A stretch of 64,000 bases of DNA from Sphingomonadales bacterium (lineage in GTDB: Bacteria > Pseudomonadota > Alphaproteobacteria > Sphingomonadales > Sphingomonadaceae). The DNA lies in the NCBI GenBank assembly GCA_038256425.1, contig JBBSKI010000003.1:3392-67391 (forward strand). Reading direction: 5' to 3'. This document shows, piece by piece, positions 11,487 through 40,771 of the stretch (its first letter is position 1; each line of letters begins with the position of its first letter). The notes under the pieces were generated by a model that was not told where the DNA came from, made no database searches, and saw only the letters and a program-made list of their open reading frames with translations. The position numbers and the translations under genes are program-made.

Positions 11487-12530
11487 ATGACCGAAGCGAT
11501 CCTCGAGCCCGAATTGCCGATCGTCGATCCGCATCACCATCTGTGGGACCTGCGGCCGCTGGTCGCTGCGTTTCCAGAGCCGCACCATTCGTTCATCGCC
11601 TCGATCGCGCGCACGCCGTATTACACTTTCGACGGTCTGCTGGCCGATACCTCGAGGGGCCACAACGTGGTCGCCACGGTGTTCATGGAGTGCGGTGCAT
11701 TCTATCGCGCAGGCGCTTCAGAGGCGCTCAAGTCGATCGGCGAGGTCGAGTTCGTCGGCGGGGTTGCGGCGCAGAGCGCGAGCGGACTTTATGGACCCCT
11801 GCGCGCCTGCGCCGGGATTGTCGGCCATGCCGACCTGTTGCGGGGCGATGCGGTGGTCGAGACGCTCGACGCGTTGATTGCGGCTGGTAACGGACGCTTT
11901 CGCGGCATCCGCCACAGCGCGGCGTGGGATGCCGATGGCGAAGTTCTGGGCCGTCCCTTTGGCGCGAAGCAGCACCTTCTCGGTGACGCGACATTCCGGG
12001 CCGGGTTCGCCCGCCTCGCGACGCTGGGCCTCAGCTTCGATGCATGGGTGGTGGAACCGCAACTGCCCGACGTCATCGCTCTTGCCCGCGCCTTCCCCGA
12101 CACGTCCATCGTCCTTGACCATTGCGGCACCCCGCTGGGTGTCGCCAGCTACGCGGGCAAGCTGGACGAGAACTTCGAACGCTGGCGTGGCAATATCCAC
12201 GCGCTGGCGCAGTGCCCCAACGTTTCGGTCAAACTCGGCGGTCTGGCCATGGCGTTTTGCGCGATGCCCGCCGAAGGACCCGAAGCAGGCTATTCGTCGG
12301 AAGCGCTCGCGGAGCTGTGGAAGCCGTATATCGACACCTGCATCGAAGCGTTCGGCCCCGCCAGGGCGATGTTCGAAAGCAATTACCCGGTCGACAAGTG
12401 GGGCGCGAGCTACGCCACACTGTGGAACACGTTCAAGCGGCTGGCAGCAGGCGCATCGGCAGACGAAAAGCGCGCGCTGTTTGCCGGGACTGCGGCGCGG
12501 GTATACGGGATCGAACATGTGCTGAACTGA
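11487..12530 (+). CDS. Amidohydrolase family protein (amidohydro_2)
   Basis: [30 protein letters not shown] motifs. Confidence 0.88.
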
Positions 12531-30168: not shown

Positions 30169-30894
30169 TCACCGGCAATAGCCGCCCATCCCGCGCCGCG
30201 CTTGGTCTAAGTGAAAGTGGTTGGCATGGGCGGCGTTGTAATTGGGCGATAGCGTGGTGCCGAACACTTCGCAGGCCCCGTCGCGGGCTATTTTGAGAAA
30301 AGCAGCCTCGTCAGCATCTGGCCCGGCCCAGTCGCTCAGCACACTGATCCTGCGGCCGTCGTCGAGCACGAACCCGGCAATGTCGATCGCATTGCCGGTG
30401 GCATGTTCGCTCCAGCGCCCGGTGTCGCCACCGCCGACCCGGCGGCAGCTGGCCGTGCCATAGTGTTCCAGCGCAACCACTCGCGCGCCCAGCCCGGCTT
30501 GAGCAGCGGGCTGGACCGAATGCCGCAGCCACAGCGCCAGACCCGCTGCGACGGGGCAGGTGCCCTCTGCATCTGCCGGGCGCAGCACCAGTCCGCGATC
30601 GGGGTCGCCCGTCAGCAGGGTGCGGTCGTCGCGGCGGCAAGCCTGCGCACCCGTCGGCTCGCGCACGCTAAAAGCGATCCCGGCGCGTTCCAGCACCGCG
30701 CGGCATTGCGCCGGGTCGTCGCGCAGCGCCATCAGCTTGCGCGACGTTGCCCAGCCGACCGGATCGTCGATCGCAAGCGGAGCCCACGGGTCGTGCTCGG
30801 GATGTCCGGCCAGCCACACCCGCGCAGCGACGAACAGACTGGCGATCAGCAACAGCGCCAGCGCAATGCGGTCGAGGCGAAAGCGGCGGATCAA
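30169..30894 (-). CDS. Extensin-like C-terminal domain protein
   Basis: N-terminal TM; CR...WSEHATGNAIDI, PNYNAAHANHFHLD motifs; 4-bp overlap with the dnaE2 stop. Confidence 0.85.
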   Translation of the reverse strand: MIRRFRLDRIALALLLIASLFVAARVWLAGHPEHDPWAPLAIDDPVGWATSRKLMALRDDPAQCRAVLERAGIAFSVREPTGAQACRRDDRTLLTGDPDRGLVLRPADAEGTCPVAAGLALWLRHSVQPAAQAGLGARVVALEHYGTASCRRVGGGDTGRWSEHATGNAIDIAGFVLDDGRRISVLSDWAGPDADEAAFLKIARDGACEVFGTTLSPNYNAAHANHFHLDQARRGMGGYCR

Positions 30895-33800
30895 TGAAAA
30901 TCGCGCGATGGGGGCAAAACCCGGGGGATGACCCGGACGTCACGCGGGTGGCCTTGCTGGAACCCGCAGTCGCGATTTCCCGGCGGGGGCGGATCGAACG
31001 GCTCGACCGGAGCAATGGGCGGCCCGATCGCCGGGGCTGAAAACTTGCTCGGCAGCGGATTGTTGCAATGATCGGCGCGCGCGATCGTGGTGGGCAGGAG
31101 ATCGTCCGACAGGGCGTGGAGCGCTGCCGTGGCGTCGGTCAGGTGGGCGGCGATGACGTGGATCACCTCGTCGTCGTACTCCACCCGCCCGCGCACTTCC
31201 ATCAACCGCGCACCCATCACCACCTTGCGCTGGCGCTCCTTGAGATCGGGCCAGACGACCAGATTGATGACCCCGGTCTCGTCCTCCAGCGTGATGAACA
31301 CCACGCCCTTGGCGCTGCCGGGGCGCTGGCGGATCAGGACCACGCCGGCGACCTGGACGATGCTGCGGAGTTTGCGCGCGCGCAGATCGGCGGCGCGGAC
31401 GAAGCCGCGCTCGGCCAGCCCCGCGCGCAAAAAGGCCAGGGGGTGCGCTTTCAGGCTCAACCGCTGGGTCTGGTAATCGGCGACCACCTCCTCGCTCAGC
31501 GGCATTGCGGGAAGCGTGGTGCGGCGGCGCTCCTCACCCTGGTCGCGGGCATCAGCAGCAGCGAACAACGGCAGCCCCGCCCCGCCGATCAGGCTGCGCG
31601 CGTCCCACAGCGCCTGCCGCCGTGGCAATCCGAGCGAGCCGAACGCATCGGCCGCGGCGAGTCGCTCGATATGCGCCGGGCTCAGCCCCGCCCGGTCGCG
31701 CAGCGCGGCGACATCGGCAAATGCCCCGCCCGCCACGCGCGCGCTCACCAGTGCGGCGGCGACATGTTCGGGCAGCCCGTCGATCTGCCGCAGACCGAGG
31801 CGCAGGGCGAGGTGGGCTTCGAGAGAAGGATGAGAATCCCGGCGAGGTGCCGCCGCTACATCCTCCAGCGCGCAGTCCCAGCCTGAGAAATTCACGTCCA
31901 CCGGCAGCACCGGCACCCCGTGGTCCACCGCATCCCGCACGATCTGCGCAGGCGCGTAAAAGCCCATCGGCTGCGAATTGAGCAGCCCGCAGGCAAACGC
32001 CGCCGGGTAATGGCATTTTAGCCAGCTCGAGACGTAGACCAGATGCGCAAAGCTGGCGGCGTGGCTTTCGGGAAAGCCGTATTCGCCGAAGCCGCGGATC
32101 TGGTTGAAGCAGCGCTGCGCGAAATCGCGGTCATAACCGCGCGCGACCATCCGCTCGACCATCATGTCCTGTAATTCGTCGACCATCCCGCGCGAACGAA
32201 AGGTCGCCATCGCCTTGCGCAGCCGGTTGGCCTCGGCCCCTGAAAATTTCGCCGCGTCCAGCGCGATCTTCATCGCCTGCTCCTGGAAGATCGGCACTCC
32301 CAGCGTGCGCCCGAGGATGCTGGTGAGCTCGTCGGGCGGCCCGTGGGCTGGGCCGGGAGCCGGAATCTCGACCTTCTCCTCGCCGCGCCGCCGCTTGAGA
32401 TAGGGGTGGACCATATCGCCCTGGATCGGGCCCGGCCGCACGATCGCAACCTGGATGACGAGATCGTAGAACTCGCGCGGGCGCAGCCGCGGCAGCATGT
32501 TCATCTGCGCCCGGCTCTCAACCTGGAACACGCCGAGCGAATCGCCCTTGCGCAACATCGCGTAGACTTCCGGGTCCTCACGCGGGACGGAGGCCAGCGT
32601 CAGCAGGCGCGCGTGGTGATCCTCCAGCAGGTTCAGACATTTGGCGATGCAGGTCAGCATGCCGAGCGCCAGCACATCGACCTTGAGGATGCCGAGCGCG
32701 TCGATATCGTCCTTGTCCCATTCGATGAAACTGCGCTCGGGCATCGCTCCGTTGCCGATCGGCACGGTTTCGGTCAGCGGGTTCTGGGTGAGGATGAAGC
32801 CGCCGACGTGCTGGCCCAGATGGCGCGGCATCCCGATCATCTGTTCGGTCAGCTTCAGCACCCGGCGCAGATGCGGATCGCCCGGATCGAGGCCCGTCTC
32901 GGCAACATGGCGATCGCCGATCTCGGTCCCCCACCCGCCCCACACGGTGCGGGCCAGCGCGCTGGTGATGTCCTCGCTCAATCCCATCGCCTTGCCGACC
33001 TCGCGGACCGCCATGCGCGGGCGGTAATGGATCACCGTGGCGCACAGCCCGGCGCGGTGGCGGCCATAGCGGCGATAGATATACTGGATCACCTCCTCGC
33101 GCCGCTCGTGCTCGAAATCGACGTCGATATCAGGCGGTTCCTTGCGCTCCTCGGAGATGAAGCGATCGAACAGCAGCGCGTGCTTGGCCGGATCGACCGC
33201 CGTGATCTCGAGGCAATAACACACCGCCGAATTGGCCGCCGAACCGCGCCCCTGGCACAGGATCGGCGGATCGCAGCCCCGCGCGAAATCGACGATGTCC
33301 TTGATGGTGAGGAAATAGCGCGCGAGGTCGAGCTTGGCGATCAGCGCCAGTTCGCGCCGCAGCGTATCGCGCACCGGCTCGGGCACGCCGCCACCCGTTT
33401 CATTGGCGGGATAGCGCGTATCGGCCCCTTCCCAGGTCAGCCGTTCAAGCTGCGCCTGCGGATCGCGCCCTTCGGGGCAGATCTCCTCCGGGTATTCATA
33501 ACGCAGTTCGGACAGGCTGAAGTTGCAGGCATCGGCCACCGCGCGCGCGGCGACCAGCGCGTGCGGCCAGCGTGCGAACAGCCGCGCCATTTCCTCGGGC
33601 GATTTGAGGTGCCGTTCGGCGTTGGGCTGGAGCAGGTGGCCTGCTGCCGCGACCGTAGTCTTGTGGCGGATCGCAGTCATCACATCATGGAGCGGACGGC
33701 GCTCGGGCGCGTGATAGAGCACTTCGTTGGTGGCCAGCAGGGTCAGCCCGTTGCCCTGCGCCAAGGCGTCGAGCCGGTCGATCCGGGCAATATCGTCGCC

Positions 33801-34613
33801 GCTATAGAGGTAGGCGGCGGCCAGATGGCGCAGCGTCGGGAGTTGCGCGGTCAGATGGGGGAGGATGTCGGGGAACGGAGCGGTAAAACAAGTTTGCTCT
33901 TGCAAAGGCGCAAAGGCGCAAAGAGGTTCCGCTTCGGGCGCAGCCCCTGTCAATTCCAACGGTGTAGCGGACCCGGTACCGGAATTGGAGAAAGAGGCCT
34001 GCGGCGCAGCACGGCCTCTTTGCGCCTTCGCGCCTTTGCGAGAGTCCCTTTCTTCCCCCTTTCTCAGCCCCTTCGCGCCTTCGCGTGAATCAAATCGAAC
34101 GACATTGCTCGCCACCGCAATCGTCAGTTCGGCATCCAGATTGCGCGAGGGGATGAGGATCAGCTGCACATCCTCGGCATGTCCAGCCAGCATCGCCAGC
34201 GAAATCTGGCAGACCCCCTTGTCCTGCCAGCCGCCATCGAGCGTGCCCATCCGCCCGGCCGAAATCAGGCGGCACAAGCGCCCGTAAGCCGCGCGATCAA
34301 CCGGATAGGCGAGGAACGCCAGCCCCTCGACCGTCTCGATCCGGCAGCCGATTATTGGTGTCAGTTTAAGCGTTCCGGCCTCGCAATGCAGCCGCACCAC
34401 CCCGGCCATCGAGTTGGCATCGGCGATACCCAGCGCGTCATAGCCCAGCGCGCGCGCGGTCAGCACCAGGTCGACCGCATCCGAAGCGCCGCGCAGGAAC
34501 GAAAAGCAGCTCGCGATACCCAGTTCGACGAAAGCCGCGCGTTCGGGCGGGGCGATCTGGGCCGGATCGAGTTCGATCGTCCGGCGCGGCTGGATGAGAT
34601 CGTTTTCGGGCAC
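30891..34613 (-). CDS. dnaE2: Error-prone DNA polymerase DnaE2 (ImuC)
   Basis: PHP domain (FSFLRGAS), GRGSAANS, PPDIDVDFE, FQVESRAQM and the diagnostic C-terminal SRDFH. Confidence 0.96.
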   Translation of the reverse strand: MPENDLIQPRRTIELDPAQIAPPERAAFVELGIASCFSFLRGASDAVDLVLTARALGYDALGIADANSMAGVVRLHCEAGTLKLTPIIGCRIETVEGLAFLAYPVDRAAYGRLCRLISAGRMGTLDGGWQDKGVCQISLAMLAGHAEDVQLILIPSRNLDAELTIAVASNVVRFDSREGAKGLRKGEERDSRKGAKAQRGRAAPQASFSNSGTGSATPLELTGAAPEAEPLCAFAPLQEQTCFTAPFPDILPHLTAQLPTLRHLAAAYLYSGDDIARIDRLDALAQGNGLTLLATNEVLYHAPERRPLHDVMTAIRHKTTVAAAGHLLQPNAERHLKSPEEMARLFARWPHALVAARAVADACNFSLSELRYEYPEEICPEGRDPQAQLERLTWEGADTRYPANETGGGVPEPVRDTLRRELALIAKLDLARYFLTIKDIVDFARGCDPPILCQGRGSAANSAVCYCLEITAVDPAKHALLFDRFISEERKEPPDIDVDFEHERREEVIQYIYRRYGRHRAGLCATVIHYRPRMAVREVGKAMGLSEDITSALARTVWGGWGTEIGDRHVAETGLDPGDPHLRRVLKLTEQMIGMPRHLGQHVGGFILTQNPLTETVPIGNGAMPERSFIEWDKDDIDALGILKVDVLALGMLTCIAKCLNLLEDHHARLLTLASVPREDPEVYAMLRKGDSLGVFQVESRAQMNMLPRLRPREFYDLVIQVAIVRPGPIQGDMVHPYLKRRRGEEKVEIPAPGPAHGPPDELTSILGRTLGVPIFQEQAMKIALDAAKFSGAEANRLRKAMATFRSRGMVDELQDMMVERMVARGYDRDFAQRCFNQIRGFGEYGFPESHAASFAHLVYVSSWLKCHYPAAFACGLLNSQPMGFYAPAQIVRDAVDHGVPVLPVDVNFSGWDCALEDVAAAPRRDSHPSLEAHLALRLGLRQIDGLPEHVAAALVSARVAGGAFADVAALRDRAGLSPAHIERLAAADAFGSLGLPRRQALWDARSLIGGAGLPLFAAADARDQGEERRRTTLPAMPLSEEVVADYQTQRLSLKAHPLAFLRAGLAERGFVRAADLRARKLRSIVQVAGVVLIRQRPGSAKGVVFITLEDETGVINLVVWPDLKERQRKVVMGARLMEVRGRVEYDDEVIHVIAAHLTDATAALHALSDDLLPTTIARADHCNNPLPSKFSAPAIGPPIAPVEPFDPPPPGNRDCGFQQGHPRDVRVIPRVLPPSRDFH
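33897..34089. repeat. REP-like inverted repeat inserted in frame inside dnaE2
   Basis: 30-bp arms at 33897-33926 and 34015-34044 (2 mismatches), built from GCAAAGGC-type units, plus a third partial copy at 34071-34089. Confidence 0.8.
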
Positions 34614-34616
34614 GGC

Positions 34617-36089
34617 TCAAGCCGCAAGCTCGGCCAACCGCCCCGCAACCGCGCGCAGATCGGCGGCGAAACGCGCTTCCTCGCCCGCGCGGGCGGCATC
34701 CTCGAGGCGCAGCAGGTAGGACGGATGCGTGGTGATCCACAGCTCGGCCCCGTCCTCCAGCCGCTGCGGAACCCCGCGCACCTTCTGGACGCTGACCGTC
34801 TTGCCCAGCAGCGAGCGCGCTGCACTGGCCCCCAGCGCCAGCACGAGTTGCGGGCGGACGATGCCACGCTCGCTCTCGACCCACCAGCGGCAGATGTCGA
34901 TTTCCTTGGCGGTCGGCGACTGGTGGAGGCGATGCTTGCCCCCCCGAACGATCTTGGGCGTGAACTTGAAATGCTTGACCGCATTGGTGACGTAGGTCGC
35001 GCGCTCGGCAATGCCCGCATCGCCCAGATGGGCGCGCAGCAGCCGTCCGGCGGGGCCGATGAACGGGCGGCCTTGCTGCTCCTCGACATCGCCGGGCTGC
35101 TCCCCGACGATCATCAGCCCATTGAAGTCCCGGGACGCCCGTTCCGGCCCCTCGCCCATCACCGCCCGCGTTCCGTTGCAACCGATCTCGCAGCGGCGAC
35201 AGGCCTGGACCGCCGCGCCGATCGCCTCCAGAGTCGCGGGCCGCTCCGCCTCGTCGAACCGGGTTTCGCCCGCGCTCACCATCGTCGCCTCGCGGGCCTG
35301 CGCCCCCGCGATCAGCGCGGGGATCAGCGCGGCTTCGGGCATGTTTTTCCAGTAACGGCGCGGCATCTCCTTGAGCATCGCGCCGACTTTCAGACGCGCG
35401 GGATTGAAGATCGAGGCGTAATAGCTGCGCCACAGGTCTTCGGCCGGATCATCACCGGGCGCATCGCCGCGCTGCGCGGGCGGGCCTTCGATCAGGGTGG
35501 TTCCGTCCCAGTGGAGCGCGCCCAGCGGGGTCAGGATCGACCAGGTCATCGCGGTGAATCGCTCGACGAAGAACTTCGCAACGCTGCGCAGGATGTGGTG
35601 ATCGGGCTCGAACCAGGCGACGTAGTGTTCGGCCCCCGTATCGCTTTCCACCACCCGGAACCGCACGAAGGCGTGCATCTTGTGGATGTCGCGGCGCACG
35701 ACCCGTGCGAGATCGCCGATCCGGCGGACATCGGCATCTGCCGCATCCTCCATCAGCCGGGGTTGCGCCTGAAGCCGCCACAACAGCCGATAGAGCAGCG
35801 CGAACCGGGTGGGATCGCGATGCAAAATCGCCTTTTGCGCCAATTGCAGAAACGCGCGCGGCACCCGCGGCGGGGTGGCATCGGCGGGCGGCGTCGGGAG
35901 CCGCTTGCCGCCGTCCGCGAACAGATCACCGCCCTCCCCGCCCGGCTCGCTCCAGCTCACCCGATCGGGCGGTACATCGGCCATCAGCAAGCGCCGCGCA
36001 TTGTCCCGCCACCCGTCGAAATCGTCGGACGTGGCCAGCGGGACGGAAAAGCCCGTGGCAATCCGCATGTCGCGAAACGGCGCGGTCAT
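34617..36089 (-). CDS. udgX: DUF4130 (TIGR03915-like)-UdgX family uracil-DNA binding protein fusion
   Basis: N-terminal RDIHKMHAFVRF, FEPDHHI, IFNPARLK, EMPRRYWKNMPE; C-terminal CxxC, GEQPG, NAVKHFKF, GKHRLH (KRRIH-like loop), HPSYLLR. Confidence 0.88.
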   Translation of the reverse strand: MTAPFRDMRIATGFSVPLATSDDFDGWRDNARRLLMADVPPDRVSWSEPGGEGGDLFADGGKRLPTPPADATPPRVPRAFLQLAQKAILHRDPTRFALLYRLLWRLQAQPRLMEDAADADVRRIGDLARVVRRDIHKMHAFVRFRVVESDTGAEHYVAWFEPDHHILRSVAKFFVERFTAMTWSILTPLGALHWDGTTLIEGPPAQRGDAPGDDPAEDLWRSYYASIFNPARLKVGAMLKEMPRRYWKNMPEAALIPALIAGAQAREATMVSAGETRFDEAERPATLEAIGAAVQACRRCEIGCNGTRAVMGEGPERASRDFNGLMIVGEQPGDVEEQQGRPFIGPAGRLLRAHLGDAGIAERATYVTNAVKHFKFTPKIVRGGKHRLHQSPTAKEIDICRWWVESERGIVRPQLVLALGASAARSLLGKTVSVQKVRGVPQRLEDGAELWITTHPSYLLRLEDAARAGEEARFAADLRAVAGRLAELAA

Positions 36090-36096
36090 CTGGAGC

Positions 36097-37344
36097 CTAA
36101 GCCGCGAACAGTTCGAGCTGGGTCTCCCGCCGGGGGGCGAGCAGCGCGTGGAGGTCGGCGCGGTCGGTCAGGAGGAGCGGACGCCAGTCAGCCGCGACCA
36201 CGAACGGGCGGATTTTCACCACCGACACGGTCAGCTTCGCCACATCCTCCAGCCGCAGGGTTCGGTGCCGCCGCGCGCGGATCAGCGCGTCGACCGCGCG
36301 CACCCCCAGCCTCGGCACGCGCAGCAGCGCCTCGCGCGGGGCGCGATTGACGTCGACCGGAAAACGCTCGCGGAATTTGAGCGCCCAGGCCAGCTTGGGG
36401 TCTATATCGAGCGGCAGCATCCCGTCCGCCCCCGCCGCATCCTGCACCTCGCCCGGCGAATAACCATAGAACCGCATCAGCCAGTCGGACTGGTACAAGC
36501 GATGCTCGCGGATCAACGGCGGGCGTTTGAGCGGCAGCACCGCGCTCGCATCGGGGATCGGGCTGAACGCCGAGTAATAGACCCGGCGCAGCCCGAACCG
36601 GCCATACAGCGAGCTTGCCTTGCCGACGATGTCGGCGTCGCTCGCCGCATCGGCCCCGACGATCATCTGGGTCGATTGACCGGCGGGCGCGAACCGCGGG
36701 GCGGACTTGAACCGCTTGCGTGCGTCCTTGGCTTCCACGATCTCGCGCTTGAGCCCGGCCATCGCGCCTTCGATCTGGGTGGCGGACTTGTCCGGCGCGA
36801 GCCGGGTCAACCCGGCATCGGTCGGCAGTTCGACATTGATCGAGACGCGATCGGCATAAAGCCCGGCCTGTGCGAGCAGTTCGGGATCGGCCTCGGGAAT
36901 CGTCTTGAGGTGGATATAGCCGCGAAAATCATGCTCCTCCCGCAAAATCCGCGCGACCTCCACCAGCTGCTCCATGGTGTGGTTCGACGATTTCACGATC
37001 CCCGAGGAGAGGAACAACCCCTCGATGTAATTGCGGCGATAGAAACTTAGCGTCAGGTCGACCACTTCCTGCGGGGTGAACCGCGCGCGCACGACGTTCG
37101 AGCTCTTGCGGTTGATGCAATAATGGCAATCGAACACGCAGTGATTGGTCAGCAGGATTTTCAGCAACGAGATGCAGCGCCCGTCCGGTGCATAGGCATG
37201 GCAGATGCCCGTCCCTCCGGTCGAGCCGATCCCTTTTCCGCCCTTGCTGGTCCGCGTGGCGGTGCCCGACGAGGCGCACGAGGCATCGTACTTGGCGGCG
37301 TCGGCCAGGATTTCGAGACGTTCGATGATCGGCAGCTGCGGCAT
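36097..37344 (-). CDS. Putative DNA modification/repair radical SAM protein (TIGR03916-like)
   Basis: AKYDASCASSG, GICHAYAPDGRCISLLK, CxxxCxxC (CVFDCHYC), REHRLYQSDWLMRFYG, HhH, C-terminal QLELF. Confidence 0.92.
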   Translation of the reverse strand: MPQLPIIERLEILADAAKYDASCASSGTATRTSKGGKGIGSTGGTGICHAYAPDGRCISLLKILLTNHCVFDCHYCINRKSSNVVRARFTPQEVVDLTLSFYRRNYIEGLFLSSGIVKSSNHTMEQLVEVARILREEHDFRGYIHLKTIPEADPELLAQAGLYADRVSINVELPTDAGLTRLAPDKSATQIEGAMAGLKREIVEAKDARKRFKSAPRFAPAGQSTQMIVGADAASDADIVGKASSLYGRFGLRRVYYSAFSPIPDASAVLPLKRPPLIREHRLYQSDWLMRFYGYSPGEVQDAAGADGMLPLDIDPKLAWALKFRERFPVDVNRAPREALLRVPRLGVRAVDALIRARRHRTLRLEDVAKLTVSVVKIRPFVVAADWRPLLLTDRADLHALLAPRRETQLELFAA

Positions 37345-37346
37345 TA

Positions 37347-37361
37347 GTTCTATATATGTTC
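37347..37361. promoter_or_regulatory. Alphaproteobacterial LexA (SOS) box
   Basis: GTTC-TATATAT-GTTC (GTTC-N7-GTTC), 2 nt upstream of the radical SAM ATG. Confidence 0.88.
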
Positions 37362-37427
37362 TCACCGTGCCGCTGGCGAGTCCTTTTATCGCAACAGTTT
37401 GTATCTCAGAGGTTTGCATCGCGATGG

Positions 37428-37452
37428 GGAACCCTGTTCACAACCGGCGGTT
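37428..37452 (+). promoter_or_regulatory. EcfG-type promoter
   Basis: GGAAC-N16-GGTT, 35 bp upstream of the hydrolase ATG. Confidence 0.65.
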
Positions 37453-37487
37453 CAATCCCGGTACGATACCCCTACCGGAGAACCCCC

Positions 37488-38417
37488 ATGCCGATGATCG
37501 AAACCCGTGACGGAACCCGCCTTTACGCAAAGGTCTGGGGCGAAGGTCCTCCGGTGGTGCTGATTCACGGCTGGCCGCTGTCGGGCGACAGCTGGGATCC
37601 GATCAGCCACGCGCTGGTCGAGGCGGGCTTCACCGCTATCGCTTACGACCGCCGTGGTTTCGGACGTTCGGATCAGCCTTCGGGCGGCTATGACTACGAT
37701 ACCTTCGCCGATGACCTTGCGGCGGTGCTGGAGCATTGCGCCAAGGGCCAGGACGCGGCGCTGATCGGCTTCTCGATGGGCGGCGGCGAGATTGCGCGCT
37801 ACCTCTCGCGCCATAGCGGAAAGGGCGTAAGCCGGGTCGCGCTGATAAGTTCGGTGGTGCCTTACATGCTCCAGACCGACGACAATCCCCAAGGCGTGCC
37901 GCAGGCGACATTCGATCAGATGACCGAAGGCATGCTGGCCGACCGGGCGCATTTCTTCACCTCGTTCTTCAAGGACTTCTACGGTGTCGGGTGGGTCACC
38001 CAGCCGGTCAGCGACGAGGTGCTGCACCTCAGCTGGATCACCGCGATGCAGGCCGGGCTGCGTCCGACGCTGCTCTCCGCACAGGCTTTTGCGACCACCG
38101 ATTTCCGTCCCGATCTGGCCAGCTTTACGATGCCGACGCTGGTGATCCACGGGACTGCCGACAAGACCGTGCCGATTGAGCCGACCGCGCGCGAAGTGGT
38201 CAAGGCGGTGCCGCACGCGCAGTTGATCGAATATGGCGGCGAGCCGCACGGGCTGTTCGCCACCCGGACCGAACGGCTGAAGGAAGACCTTCTGCAGTTT
38301 CTCAGCAATGGTGACGGACGCAGCGCTTTCGCCGGGCTGGATGACGCTTCTCCTGAAGCGCGCCAGGACATCATCGACGAGACGACGCGACAGAGCATGG
38401 TGACGCCGATAATGTGA
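37488..38417 (+). CDS. Alpha/beta hydrolase (non-heme chloroperoxidase/arylesterase-like)
   Basis: IHGWPL, YDRRGFGRS, GFSMGGGE, HGTADKTVP, PHGL motifs. Confidence 0.9.
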   Translation: MPMIETRDGTRLYAKVWGEGPPVVLIHGWPLSGDSWDPISHALVEAGFTAIAYDRRGFGRSDQPSGGYDYDTFADDLAAVLEHCAKGQDAALIGFSMGGGEIARYLSRHSGKGVSRVALISSVVPYMLQTDDNPQGVPQATFDQMTEGMLADRAHFFTSFFKDFYGVGWVTQPVSDEVLHLSWITAMQAGLRPTLLSAQAFATTDFRPDLASFTMPTLVIHGTADKTVPIEPTAREVVKAVPHAQLIEYGGEPHGLFATRTERLKEDLLQFLSNGDGRSAFAGLDDASPEARQDIIDETTRQSMVTPIM

Positions 38418-38428
38418 ACCGCATCGGG

Positions 38429-39982
38429 CTAGGCGCACAGCCCCTGCAGGAACCACTCGGGCGCGCCTCCCCGCCCATCGCCTGCCAGTCCTGAGCGGTA
38501 AATCCAGTAACGCGCGCCGGTGTCGTCCTCGATCCGGTAATAGTCGCGCAGCCGTGCACCGCCGCGTTCGCGCCACCATTCGGGCGCGATCCGCTCCGGG
38601 CCCTCGGCGCGCGCGATCTCATGCACCGTGCCGCGCCAGCGGAACCGGCGGGGCATCCCGTCGGGGGTGGCATAAAGCACCGCGATCGGTTCGGCGCGGT
38701 CGAGCAGCTTGAGCGGGCGGGCGTGGAAGGCCAGCTCGTCCTGCGCGGGTGGTGCGGGGGCCAGCGGCGATTGCCAACGCTGGGCGCGCTCGGGAATATG
38801 GCTGGCGTGGAGCACCGGGCGACGCACCGCACCTTCGCCCAGCCGCACCGCGATCCGATCGATACAGGCGGCCAGGCTGGTGCCATGCGCCTCTGCGGCC
38901 GTTTCGAAATCGCCTTGCCCCAACGCCAGCGGCTCGGCCCAGGGCACCCGCAGCCGGACCAGCTCGATCCCGAAACCGGCATCGATATCGTCGAGCCGCG
39001 CCGCGAACAGGCGGACGATATGGGCCGCATCGCGGCTGGCGGCGGCCAGTTCGAGGCGGCGCACGATCACCTCGCCATCGACTTTCCACGCCCCCAGTTC
39101 GAGCTGGCGGGCACCCAGCGCCCGGCCTTCGAGCACCCGCACCAGATCGGCGGCGAGATCGGCCAGCACCCGGTCGAGCAGTTCGCGATGGCGGATCGGC
39201 TCCATCAGCCGTCGCTGGACCAGCGGCGCCTCGACCGCGACGACCGGGAGCAATGGTTCGGGCACGGTGCCCAACAGCTGGTCGAGCCGGATCAGCGGAT
39301 TGGCGGCGGCCGAGCGCCGGTTGCGGAAGCGCCGGGCGAGCGCCGGGCGATCGATCCCGGACAAGTCGCCGAGCCGCTTGAGCCCCAGGCGGCGGAGCAG
39401 CAGCAGGACATCGTCGTCGAGCCGCAGCGCCGCGACCGGCAACTGCGCGAGCCGCGCGGCGGGGTCTTCCTCTGCGCCGAGAAGGGCATTGGCGGGACCG
39501 TGATGGGCGAGCGCCCAGGCCGCCCCGGCGGTCGGCGCGATGGCCATGCGGACCGTCAGGCGCCGCTTTGCAAAGGCGCGCGCGGCATCGGCCAGCAGCG
39601 CCTCCTCGCCGCCGAACAAGTGCGCGACCCCGCTGGTATCGACCACCAGCCCGTCGGGCGGATCGAGCGCGCTCCACCGCCCCCAGCGCTGCGCCCACAG
39701 CGCCAGGCTCTCCAGGAATGCCAGGTCGCCTGCCGGATCGGAGGGACGCACCGCCAGCCCCGGACATAGCGCGCGGGCATCGGCGAGCATCGTCCCGGAG
39801 CGCGCGCCCGCTGCCGCCCCGACGCGGTTGACGGCGGCAAGGCGCGGCCCGTGCGCGGTCTCGGCAATCAGCGCGAGCGGTTCCGCATCGGCCCCCTCGC
39901 CCTCGGCACAACCTTCGGCCAGACGCCAGCGATCGAGCGGAAGGCGAGCGAGCCAGATGGCGAGGATGCGGCGCGGGGGCAT
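38429..39982 (-). CDS. imuB: ImuB, Y-family polymerase-like mutasome subunit
   Basis: Y-family N-terminus with degenerate catalytic motifs, SHIPERA, RPLKLL, GPERIAPEWW, RDYYRIED...RYWIYR. Confidence 0.9.
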   Translation of the reverse strand: MPPRRILAIWLARLPLDRWRLAEGCAEGEGADAEPLALIAETAHGPRLAAVNRVGAAAGARSGTMLADARALCPGLAVRPSDPAGDLAFLESLALWAQRWGRWSALDPPDGLVVDTSGVAHLFGGEEALLADAARAFAKRRLTVRMAIAPTAGAAWALAHHGPANALLGAEEDPAARLAQLPVAALRLDDDVLLLLRRLGLKRLGDLSGIDRPALARRFRNRRSAAANPLIRLDQLLGTVPEPLLPVVAVEAPLVQRRLMEPIRHRELLDRVLADLAADLVRVLEGRALGARQLELGAWKVDGEVIVRRLELAAASRDAAHIVRLFAARLDDIDAGFGIELVRLRVPWAEPLALGQGDFETAAEAHGTSLAACIDRIAVRLGEGAVRRPVLHASHIPERAQRWQSPLAPAPPAQDELAFHARPLKLLDRAEPIAVLYATPDGMPRRFRWRGTVHEIARAEGPERIAPEWWRERGGARLRDYYRIEDDTGARYWIYRSGLAGDGRGGAPEWFLQGLCA

Positions 39983-39998
39983 TGGGCCTTCGGCCGGC

Positions 39999-40739
39999 TC
40001 AGGCTGAGCGGATTATGGGATTCAGATCCAAATCCCGATCAGGCCCGGCTGGCCGAAACGCGCCTTCGTCCGCCACCAAAACCCCGTCATCGCGCAGCAC
40101 CCAGTGCCCCGGCTGATACGTATGCGCGCGGAACAGTTCGGCCTTCCACGCGGGCGCGCCGGGAGCCGCCGCGTTCCAGCGCGGTGGGAGCGAGGGGGCC
40201 GAGCGCGCCTCCCAGCGCAGCCGCGCCGAGCCGAGATCGTGCGCGGCATCGAGCCGGACCAGCCACAGCGGCACCCCGTGGCGTTCTGCCACCAGGCTCA
40301 GCCGCCGCGAAGCAGTGAGGCCGAGCGCGCGCGGGTTGCCCGCGATCTCGCCGATCACGAAAGCCAGATCGCGGCAGCGCAGCCCTTCCTCCAGCGCGAA
40401 CAGCGCATCCTGGGCGCTATCGGCGGCGACATGGATCAGGCGATGGCGCAGGCCGCGCGGCAGGCCGGGGCGATAGGGCCGCCCGCCCAGCCGCCGCGCC
40501 GCCTTGTCCTGCACCCACAGCCAGGCGCGCTGATCGGGTGCATCGGACAGCTTGTCGAGCACGAGGCTATCAAGCGCGAGGGCCACCGCCAGCCCCGCCC
40601 CGCCCGCCTCGGTGGCAGGTGCAAAAATCTCGCCATGACGGCAGGTCGCGGGCAGCCCCGGCCGCCAGTGTTCGGTGCGCGCGGCAAGACCGGCGGAAAA
40701 ACCGCGCGTGAGACCGGCAGGGGGAGGTGAATGCGGCAT
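39999..40739 (-). CDS. imuA: ImuA (RecA-like) protein
   Basis: WLWVQD, DALFALEEGLRC, LTASRRLSL, W.AELFR motifs; directly upstream of imuB and LexA-boxed. Confidence 0.82.
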   Translation of the reverse strand: MPHSPPPAGLTRGFSAGLAARTEHWRPGLPATCRHGEIFAPATEAGGAGLAVALALDSLVLDKLSDAPDQRAWLWVQDKAARRLGGRPYRPGLPRGLRHRLIHVAADSAQDALFALEEGLRCRDLAFVIGEIAGNPRALGLTASRRLSLVAERHGVPLWLVRLDAAHDLGSARLRWEARSAPSLPPRWNAAAPGAPAWKAELFRAHTYQPGHWVLRDDGVLVADEGAFRPAGPDRDLDLNPIIRSA

Positions 40740-40756
40740 GGCGAATCGACTCTGTT

Positions 40757-40771
40757 GTTCTTATTATGTTC
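40757..40771. promoter_or_regulatory. Alphaproteobacterial LexA (SOS) box
   Basis: GTTC-TTATTAT-GTTC, 17 nt upstream of imuA. Confidence 0.88.

What the first reader, a model, noticed from the sequence alone, without database searches (positions are those of the whole stretch)
30891..40771. Rewired SOS mutasome: DnaE2 is co-operonic with a radical-SAM protein and a DUF4130-UdgX fusion under its own LexA box
Seen: the minus-strand order is imuA-imuB, then an oppositely oriented hydrolase, then radical SAM-DUF4130/UdgX-dnaE2 with gaps of only 7 and 3 nt. Perfect GTTC-N7-GTTC boxes precede both imuA and the radical SAM gene. Established: ImuA-ImuB-DnaE2 performs damage-induced mutagenic synthesis. 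The TIGR03914/15/16 trio is annotated only as putative DNA modification/repair, and UdgX attaches covalently to DNA at uracil via a His in its KRRIH-type loop (GKHRLH here). Inference: DnaE2 probably cannot be expressed without the rSAM/UdgX genes. This points to one SOS pathway in which UdgX captures or protects uracil/abasic sites, the rSAM-HhH enzyme processes or makes a lesion, and DnaE2 bypasses it. This is the best candidate for an uncharacterised system in the window.
Basis: partly seen in the sequence, partly recalled or inferred. Interest (0 to 1): 0.82.

Follow-up and report, generated by a model that had tools for sequence, protein, structure and literature searches.

The report
Repair operon nested inside mutasome cassette
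In this sphingomonad the error-prone polymerase gene dnaE2 sits behind an unsolved radical-SAM/UdgX gene pair and likely borrows that pair's DNA-damage switch, but relatives have lost either half at the same site, so these are likely two separable damage-response modules rather than one pathway.

Summary
Observation confirmed: gene order, 7- and 3-nt gaps, both LexA-type boxes, intact UdgX motifs. The one-pathway reading is only partly supported. A self-contained module (LexA box, predicted leaderless promoter, TIGR03916 radical SAM, DUF4130::UdgX) was likely inserted once between imuB and dnaE2 in the Novosphingobium/Erythrobacter ancestor. Relatives deleted the pair and kept box-dnaE2, or deleted imuAB and dnaE2 and kept the pair. 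In a phylum draw, 79 of 119 dnaE2 genomes lack the radical SAM. DnaE2 therefore likely needs the promoter, not the proteins. The enzyme core is radical SAM plus DUF4130 (predicted complex 0.83 vs controls 0.00; natural fusions). It carries a conserved beta-clamp-type tail (100 of 107 homologues), and UdgX is optional. A second family independently places the pair back-to-back with imuABC (9 of 15 genomes; one shared box in the 3 sequenced), leaving a facultative link open. The pair's SOS control and a predicted complex are in print. The scan already noted this layout and the clamp tail on other DNA. Verdict: new variant of known SOS circuitry.

The parts
40757..40771 (-). LexA-type box (GAAC-N7-GAAC on the coding strand) upstream of imuA
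   Evidence: a box in the same place in relatives
39999..40739 (-). imuA (RecA-like mutasome accessory), 246 aa
   Evidence: NF033429 E 3.7e-5, below cut-off; position upstream of imuB conserved
38429..39982 (-). imuB (Y-family-like scaffold), 517 aa
   Evidence: Pfam IMS, IMS_C, DUF6504
37488..38417 (+). alpha/beta hydrolase; lineage-specific passenger between imuB and the second box (other relatives carry other genes or none here)
   Evidence: PF00561; variable inserts; start read from the sequence
37374..37379 (-). predicted -35 element (T-T-G-x-C consensus across relatives), 17 nt from the -10
   Evidence: column counts T69, T47, G68, C51 of 78 loci; inferred
37347..37361 (-). LexA-type box covering the predicted -10 element (37351-37356); ATG follows 2 nt later, so the mRNA is predicted to be leaderless
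   Evidence: box in 78 of 80 loci, ATG 2-3 nt after it in 65 of these 78; kept upstream of dnaE2 where the pair is deleted
36097..37344 (-). TIGR03916 radical SAM protein, 415 aa: CxxxCxxC at 69-76, extra conserved Cys 23/48/57, C-terminal helix-hairpin-helix-type region
   Evidence: TIGR03916 555.8 bits, cut-off 343.5; conservation; model pLDDT 89.8; HhH label and from PF12836 on homologues
36106..36120 (-). QLELF tail of the radical SAM protein, predicted beta-clamp-binding motif
   Evidence: pattern in the last 22 aa of 100 of 107 homologues vs 0 of 1795 internal windows; clamp consensus recalled
35331..36032 (-). DUF4130/TIGR03915 domain (residues 20-253), predicted binding partner of the radical SAM protein; weak DHH/RecJ-like fold
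   Evidence: TIGR03915 221 bits; complex score 0.83 vs best control 0.00; Z 6.2-7.7 to DHH/RecJ/Cdc45 chains
34647..35327 (-). UdgX domain (residues 255-481) with GEQPG, NAVKH, KHRLH (34923-34937) and HPSYLLR motifs and Fe-S ligands
   Evidence: TIGR03914 284 bits; E 7e-38 to M. smegmatis UdgX structures; Z 27.9 to 6ail
30891..34613 (-). dnaE2 (ImuC), 1240 aa, with GRGS, PDIDVDF and C-terminal SRDFH motifs; starts 3 nt after the udgX stop
   Evidence: NF004225 1354.5 bits, cut-off 939; motifs
33897..34091 (.). palindromic repeat element inserted in frame in a variable loop of the DnaE2 PHP region
   Evidence: 30-nt arms, 93% complementary; 26 motif copies in the genome; loop 32-91 aa among orthologues
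30169..30894 (-). extensin-like C-terminal domain gene overlapping the dnaE2 stop; possible fourth gene of the transcript, belongs to the locus background
   Evidence: PF06904; stays when either module is lost

Best explanation
The locus joins two SOS modules: a radical-SAM/DUF4130::UdgX gene pair with its own LexA-type box sits between imuB and dnaE2, and dnaE2 likely rides on that pair's damage-inducible transcript without needing its proteins. History (inferred): one insertion in the Novosphingobium/Erythrobacter ancestor, then repeated loss of either module. Regulation (inferred): LexA covers the -10 of a leaderless promoter, and DNA damage would switch on both this unit and imuA-imuB, so an ordinary ImuA-ImuB-DnaE2 mutasome is made from two transcripts. 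Mechanism of the pair (predicted): radical SAM and DUF4130 form a heterodimer that docks on the beta clamp through QLELF and acts on single-stranded DNA at stalled forks. DUF4130 and the HhH region would hold the strand, and a 5'-deoxyadenosyl radical would most likely repair a damaged pyrimidine or abasic-site adduct. The optional UdgX domain would excise uracil and cap the abasic site covalently. The pair would work beside DnaE2 at the same damaged forks, not upstream of it. The architecture is well supported. The exact chemistry is a guess (about 0.3).
For: Linked layout in 23 of 80 closest GTDB loci, stand-alone in 46, 11 uninformative. In the DnaE2 tree, a clade of 40 rows (support 100) holds 32 inserted, 5 direct and 3 box-only loci, the last two scattered with 4 and 3 changes forced by starred branches. 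All 35 inserted radical SAMs lie in one 46-row clade (support 95) with 11 stand-alone rows. The L160 spacer matches the pre-radical-SAM spacer of L075 (70% over 1368 bp), a clean deletion scar. Reciprocal deletions at the same site: L068, L076, L079. Phylum draw of 301 genomes: both 40, radical SAM only 10, dnaE2 only 79, neither 172; of the 40, 5 are in-operon, 3 divergent, 1 within 10 kb and 31 unlinked. Controls: B. thetaiotaomicron has TIGR03916 without dnaE2, C. glutamicum the reverse. Complex score 0.83, best of 3 controls 0.00; the mark was reached by 116 of 157 solved complexes and 2 of 215 mismatched pairs; runs agree in at least 78% of contacts; partner pLDDT at least 85. Single-chain radical SAM-DUF4130(-UdgX) fusions in 12 of 12 long proteins checked. 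Clamp-type tail in 100 of 107 homologues. An independent AF3 complex in a Lachnospiraceae pair (bioRxiv 10.64898/2026.08.19.745780, passages).
Against: The two modules have come together a second time: 9 of 15 radical-SAM-positive genomes of family f181 carry them back-to-back, with one shared box in the 3 loci sequenced. Radical-SAM genomes are enriched for dnaE2 (40 of 50 vs 79 of 251; kin and genome size not controlled). No lexA above cut-off in this assembly. No transcript evidence was obtained. Tree sampling was biased towards radical-SAM-positive loci and used FastTree only. No solved homologue points to the chemistry: the best fold matches (HydE, LipA, MqnE, BioB; Z 15.8-16.7) rank above spore photoproduct lyase (Z 11.8). 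In more distant homologues only 7 of 31 carry the strict clamp motif.
Confidence: 0.7

Rival explanations
1. Facultative hand-off: where both modules are present they cooperate at the clamp. UdgX caps uracil sites, the radical SAM complex trims or releases the adduct, and ImuB-DnaE2 inserts across what remains. Selection for this would explain the repeated clustering.
For: Two independent clusterings: the nested operon and the divergent layout in 9 of 15 f181 genomes. Co-occurrence 40 of 50 vs 79 of 251. In E. coli, UdgX plus Ugi impairs growth of dinB and umuDC mutants (PMC4787834, passages). An earlier scan note reports UdgX near imuA' in other bacteria (e1-1173204, not tested).
Against: Either module is lost at the same site. 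31 of 40 genomes with both keep them apart. In Caulobacter, udg CC2333 and imuAB CC3213/CC3212 have distant locus numbers (PMC1839093). Shared LexA control alone can favour such rearrangements. No radical SAM-DnaE2 fusion among 31 long homologues.
Confidence: 0.17
2. The radical SAM-DUF4130 complex writes a mark on nucleic acid rather than repairing it, for example sulfur insertion or methylation through an auxiliary cluster on Cys23/48/57, in the manner of LipA or MiaB. UdgX would read or remove by-products.
For: Three extra Cys kept in 39, 39 and 38 of 41 core homologues. The LipA match spans model residues 4-292 at Z 16.5, rmsd 3.2, 225 aligned. The preprint likens DUF4130's position to the TRAM domain of MiaB and favours modification. 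Aravind et al. suggest thymine modification (PMC3765255).
Against: The extra Cys are much less conserved in 21 distant homologues. Cys48 and Cys57 lie in the predicted DUF4130 interface and may be structural. Their geometry could not be measured. SOS control and a clamp tail fit repair at least as well.
Confidence: 0.2
3. Obligatory single pathway: DnaE2 function depends on the radical SAM and UdgX proteins.
For: 3-nt gap and shared promoter here; linkage kept across many genera.
Against: 79 of 119 dnaE2 genomes lack TIGR03916. In the genus draw, 7 of 14 genomes with this DnaE2 type have lost the pair from the site, 6 keep it and 1 is unresolved. Box-only and direct layouts keep full-length dnaE2.
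Confidence: 0.04

Closest known systems
SOS-regulated COG4277 (radical SAM/HhH) - COG1573 (UDG) two-gene operon of Alphaproteobacteria, Verrucomicrobia and Bacteroidetes (PMC8565304, passages seen; its refs 7 and 65 not held)
   Same: Same gene pair, own LexA-type operator, proposed uracil-related repair role.
   Different: Here it is nested in the mutasome cassette and likely drives dnaE2. The passages read do not mention this wiring, the clamp tail or the leaderless promoter.
imuA-imuB-dnaE2 mutagenesis cassette of Caulobacter (PMC1839093, passages)
   Same: All three genes present, with a LexA-type box before imuA.
   Different: Split into two likely transcription units, each with a box; in Caulobacter the udg gene has a distant locus number.
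Mycobacterium smegmatis UdgX (PMC4787834, PMC10359453, passages; PDB 6AIL, 6IOD)
   Same: GEQPG, R107 and H109 equivalents, HPS..R motif and Fe-S ligands kept; Z 27.9, rmsd 2.2, 204 aligned.
   Different: Fused behind DUF4130; R-loop reads KHRLH; crosslinking untested for this protein.
Predicted DUF4130-radical SAM complex of Lachnospiraceae (bioRxiv 10.64898/2026.08.19.745780, passages; supplements not seen)
   Same: Same two families, confident heterodimer, DHH/RecJ-like resemblance of DUF4130.
   Different: That DUF4130 has no UdgX fusion, and the passages read give no SOS, clamp or mutasome context.
Spore photoproduct lyase SplB and PA0069-type SOS radical SAMs
   Same: Radical SAM enzymes on DNA under damage control. 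This genome's boxed PA0069 gene also ends in a QLSLL tail.
   Different: Different family; SPL ranks 18th in the fold search (Z 11.8) behind HydE, LipA and BioB.

Membership tests
TIGR03916 radical SAM (COG4277) | HMM score over cut-off and CxxxCxxC motif | tested here: met
   555.8 vs 343.5 bits; C69/C73/C76 in 41 of 41 core rows
TIGR03916 radical SAM (COG4277) | adjacent TIGR03915/DUF4130 gene | tested here: met
   7-nt gap; TIGR03915 221 vs 112.25 bits
UdgX | GEQPG motif A with R107 and H109 in the R-loop | tested here: met
   GEQPG at 329, KHRLH at 385; signature per PMC10359453
UdgX | covalent His-deoxyribose adduct after uracil excision | not testable with these tools
   needs a DNA crosslinking assay
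ImuA-ImuB-DnaE2 mutasome | dnaE2-class polymerase with catalytic motif | tested here: met
   NF004225 1354.5 vs 939 bits; PDIDVDF and SRDFH present
ImuA-ImuB-DnaE2 mutasome | imuA and imuB present | tested here: met
   imuB by Pfam; imuA below HMM cut-off but in conserved position, as in other alphaproteobacterial imuA genes
ImuA-ImuB-DnaE2 mutasome | three genes contiguous in one operon (Caulobacter type) | tested here: not met
   hydrolase on the other strand, second box and two genes lie between imuB and dnaE2
Alphaproteobacterial LexA regulon | GTTC-N7-GTTC/GAAC-N7-GAAC operator over the promoter, shared with lexA, recA, uvrA | tested here: met
   motif consensus recalled, placement tested
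Alphaproteobacterial LexA regulon | lexA in the same genome | tested here: inconclusive
   none over cut-off in the 85%-complete assembly; present in 5 of 5 relatives
Alphaproteobacterial LexA regulon | LexA binding and damage induction | not testable with these tools
   RNA contigs uninformative
Beta-clamp client | conserved QL[S/D/E]LF-type peptide in an exposed terminus | tested here: met
   100 of 107 vs 0 of 1795; low-confidence tail in the model; consensus recalled
Beta-clamp client | measured binding to DnaN | not tested
Spore photoproduct lyase family | sequence-family membership and closest fold | tested here: not met
   no SplB-type NCBIfam or PDB sequence hit; SPL is listed but at Z 11.8, below 17 other chains
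LipA/MiaB-type two-cluster radical SAM | N-terminal three-Cys auxiliary cluster site | tested here: inconclusive
   C23, C48, C57 conserved in core rows only; spacing unlike LipA (recalled); model coordinates not available

The most novel reading that the evidence does not exclude
The radical SAM-DUF4130(-UdgX) complex is a clamp-docked radical DNA-repair machine that resolves UdgX-capped or other abasic-site adducts in single-stranded DNA and hands the site to ImuB-DnaE2. This would be an unrecognised SOS branch that answers how UdgX crosslinks are cleared, and selection for it would explain why two alphaproteobacterial lineages independently wired the modules to shared LexA boxes.
Probability: 0.15. 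Interest if true: 0.8.

Novelty: new variant of a known kind. Interest (0 to 1): 0.42.

Why it matters
TIGR03916/DUF4130 is a widespread damage-inducible enzyme with no known reaction, and the physiological role of UdgX is called largely unknown (PMC10359453). This work narrows the test. The unit to purify is the radical SAM-DUF4130 heterodimer, the likely site is clamp-bound single-stranded DNA, and natural deletion variants (pair only, box-dnaE2 only, both) give ready comparisons. The operon wiring itself is a modest evolutionary example of an SOS gene captured by a neighbour's operator. It also warns that deletions of the pair in this lineage would be polar on dnaE2.

Tried and rejected
RNA evidence: four ice metatranscriptome runs, contigs only, one study. 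Coverage came from short, mostly under-95% pieces of mixed organisms, and none of the listed pieces bridged udgX-dnaE2 (681 pieces not shown); uninformative. The sigma-70 scan found 0 promoter-like sites, missing even the predicted ones, so it is weak evidence against an internal promoter; 4 terminator-like sites vs 6.2 by chance. Solved-structure sequence search with the radical SAM gave no hit under E 0.1. The ESM Atlas gave no result. The IQ-TREE run did not finish, so trees are FastTree only; L153 and L029 (cut dnaE2) were left out, and 11 short-contig loci out. A DUF4130-only fold was not run, so its DHH-like match (Z under 8) is weak. Four plasmid or chromid copies inspected (4 of 164 records) had no imu genes within 6 kb. 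Three key papers were not held, so what Erill 2006, Erill 2016 and da Rocha 2008 say about split cassettes could not be checked. Literature searches that found no description of this wiring. The library lacks most subscription papers. Rejected: chance boxes (positional conservation), the hydrolase as a pathway member (variable inserts), and SplB orthology.
Full report
Observation. The order, strands and gaps are as described: imuA, imuB, a plus-strand alpha/beta hydrolase, radical SAM (415 aa), a 7-nt gap, DUF4130::UdgX (490 aa), a 3-nt gap, dnaE2 (1240 aa). TIGR03916, TIGR03915, TIGR03914 and NF004225 pass their cut-offs. ImuA is below its cut-off and ImuB is identified by Pfam. Both boxes are exact. 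Three boxes in 64 kb is not above chance (19 of 100 shuffles), but placement is conserved. An exact GAAC-N7-GAAC lies just upstream of the radical SAM gene in 78 of 80 GTDB loci. The motif also precedes lexA in 5 of 5 relatives, and recA, uvrA and a PA0069-family gene in this genome. lexA itself was not found over cut-off in this 85%-complete assembly.

Promoter anatomy. Aligned on the box, 78 loci show a T-T-G-x-C element at -18 to -13, a 17-nt spacer and a TATA-like hexamer inside the box. An ATG follows the box by 2-3 nt in 65 of 78. I infer a leaderless mRNA whose -10 is covered by LexA. The udgX-dnaE2 gap is -1 to 15 nt in 29 of 33 linked loci and 107-293 nt in 4, with no exact box before dnaE2. 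So dnaE2 is likely on this transcript. RNA data could not test this.

History. Among the 80 closest loci, 23 are linked to dnaE2, 46 stand alone with their own box (mostly Sphingomonas-like), and 11 are too short. In the DnaE2 tree the window falls in a 40-row clade (support 100) with 32 inserted, 5 direct imuB-dnaE2 and 3 box-only loci, the last two scattered (FastTree; sampling biased to radical-SAM-positive loci; two cut genes left out). All 35 inserted radical SAMs fall in one clade of 46. One insertion followed by losses is the simplest reading. The scars show direction. L152, L153, L158 and L160 keep imuA-imuB-[x]-box-dnaE2 (imuA is cut off in L158), and the L160 spacer is 70% identical over 1368 bp to the spacer before the radical SAM gene in L075. 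In 3 of those 4 genomes (89, 95 and 100% complete) the DUF4130::UdgX query finds nothing. Conversely, L068, L076 and L079 keep the pair between the same flanking genes with imuA, imuB and dnaE2 gone. These three genomes hold a dnaE2 elsewhere, and in the two inspected it is a more distant, contiguous imuABC. In the unbiased genus draw of 24 genomes, 14 carry this DnaE2 type: 6 inserted, 4 direct, 3 box-only, 1 unresolved.

Wider distribution. In 301 phylum-wide genomes: both families 40, radical SAM only 10, dnaE2 only 79, neither 172. Of the 40, 5 are in-operon (all this family), 3 divergent, 1 within 10 kb and 31 unlinked. In the class draw, 5 of 15 radical-SAM genomes lack dnaE2, and 6 of 15 have no UdgX domain near radical SAM-DUF4130. 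Against pure independence: co-occurrence is enriched (40 of 50 vs 79 of 251; not corrected for kinship or genome size). A second family (f181) has linked the modules independently: 9 of its 15 radical-SAM genomes place them back-to-back, 6 do not, and 37 of 52 dnaE2 genomes lack the radical SAM. The three loci sequenced share one box between the divergent units, and their radical SAM and DnaE2 proteins lie outside the sphingomonad clades.

The proteins. The UdgX domain keeps GEQPG, NAVKH, KHRLH and HPSYLLR and matches M. smegmatis UdgX (E 7e-38; Z 27.9, rmsd 2.2, 204 aligned). R107 and H109 are the family signature (PMC10359453, passages). DUF4130 shows a weak DHH/RecJ/Cdc45 resemblance (Z 6.2-7.7). 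The radical SAM model (pLDDT 89.8) is closest to HydE, LipA, MqnE and BioB (Z 15.8-16.7), with spore photoproduct lyase at Z 11.8, so no reaction can be read off. Cys23, Cys48 and Cys57 are kept in 39, 39 and 38 of 41 core rows but poorly in 21 distant rows. The radical SAM-DUF4130 complex scored 0.83 against a best control of 0.00 (mark reached by 116 of 157 solved and 2 of 215 mismatched pairs; at least 78% contact agreement; partner pLDDT at least 85; own alignments and ligands lie outside the calibration). Interface residues of DUF4130 are more conserved than the rest (0.78 vs 0.60). Natural radical SAM-DUF4130(-UdgX) fusions exist, and none to DnaE2 among 31 long hits. The radical SAM ends in QLELF, and the pattern occurs in the last 22 residues of 100 of 107 homologues and 0 of 1795 internal windows. 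Among 31 mostly distant representatives, 7 have the strict motif and 3 a PIP-box-like tail. The clamp and PIP consensus sequences are recalled, and binding is untested.

How it most likely works. Shown: layout, boxes, motifs, separability. Inferred: damage lifts LexA from both boxes, and an ordinary mutasome is assembled from two transcripts. Predicted: a clamp-docked radical SAM-DUF4130 heterodimer acts on single-stranded DNA at stalled forks, most likely repairing a damaged pyrimidine or abasic adduct, while UdgX caps uracil sites; the pair works beside DnaE2 (0.7 for the architecture, about 0.3 for the chemistry). The rivals overlap with it in part: a facultative hand-off to DnaE2 (0.17; helped by the double clustering and by the dinB/umuDC sensitivity to UdgX in PMC4787834, passages), a base-modifying enzyme (0.2), and an obligatory single pathway (0.04).

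What is known. PMC8565304 (passages) reports the COG1573-COG4277 operon as SOS-regulated in Bacteroidetes and cites the same for Verrucomicrobia and Alphaproteobacteria; the cited papers were not held. PMC3765255 (passages) links DUF4130 with radical SAM and UDG genes in SOS neighbourhoods. A 2026 preprint predicts the DUF4130-radical SAM complex (passages; supplements not seen). PMC5449639 (passages) lists Bradyrhizobium Bll3023 as a UdgX-type protein with activity. PMC1839093, PMC13705206 and PMC10776899 were seen as passages. Nine searches found no account of the nested wiring or the clamp tail. The scan itself has noted the nested layout in four other genomes and the clamp tail in four. 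It returned no note of the f181 divergent layout.

Verdict. Real, lineage-wide, and a new variant of known SOS circuitry, not a new system. Interest 0.42, carried by the unsolved chemistry of a clamp-docked radical enzyme and by the twice-evolved linkage.

Noticed in passing
L147:4681-13268, L148, L149 (G441, G335, G350) and six more f181 genomes: Independent linkage: udgX/DUF4130 and radical SAM transcribed one way, imuA-imuB-dnaE2 the other, with a single GAAC-N7-GAAC box between them; 9 of 15 radical-SAM-positive genomes by coordinates.
   Followed up: partly
window 33897-34091: A palindromic repeat element (26 motif copies in the genome) sits in frame inside dnaE2 and lengthens a PHP-region loop to 91 aa (32-91 aa in orthologues); similar inserts occur in L016, L156 and L160.
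   Followed up: partly
window 30169-30894 (-): An extensin-like C-terminal domain gene overlaps the dnaE2 stop and converges on phoB; it could be a fourth SOS-induced gene, and it stays when either module is lost.
   Followed up: partly
L021, L085, L089, L090, L092, L095, L097, L105, L107, L110, L115, L116, L129, L131: A small helical protein of about 160 aa (hemerythrin-like by eye, not scanned) often lies between the radical SAM and DUF4130 genes in Sphingomonas-type loci.
   Followed up: no
L174:532-1614 (G000 contig C2): A second boxed radical SAM gene (PA0069 family) also ends in a clamp-type tail, QLSLL.
   Followed up: partly
window 35919-35930 (DUF4130 residues 54-57): A conserved xDLF peptide in a loop of DUF4130 in most homologues could be a second clamp-contact motif.
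   Followed up: no
P0100, P0133, P0156: Distant radical SAM homologues end in PIP-box-like tails instead of the bacterial motif; their origin was not determined.
   Followed up: partly
L078:9453-16571: The pair and dnaE2 are kept but imuA-imuB are gone from the site, and a 293-nt gap precedes dnaE2.
   Followed up: no
L052: A contig titled Cypionkella (Paracoccaceae) carries the sphingomonad-type nested cassette and groups inside that clade; misbinning or transfer.
   Followed up: no
window 12513-12527 (-): A third exact GTTC-N7-GTTC in the window; the downstream gene was not examined.
   Followed up: no
G000:C4:37605 and C4:38270-38512 (L167): A GTTC-N7-GTTC site lies near a gene with a weak match to the C-terminal half of LexA (E 1.4e-5, below cut-off).
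   Followed up: no
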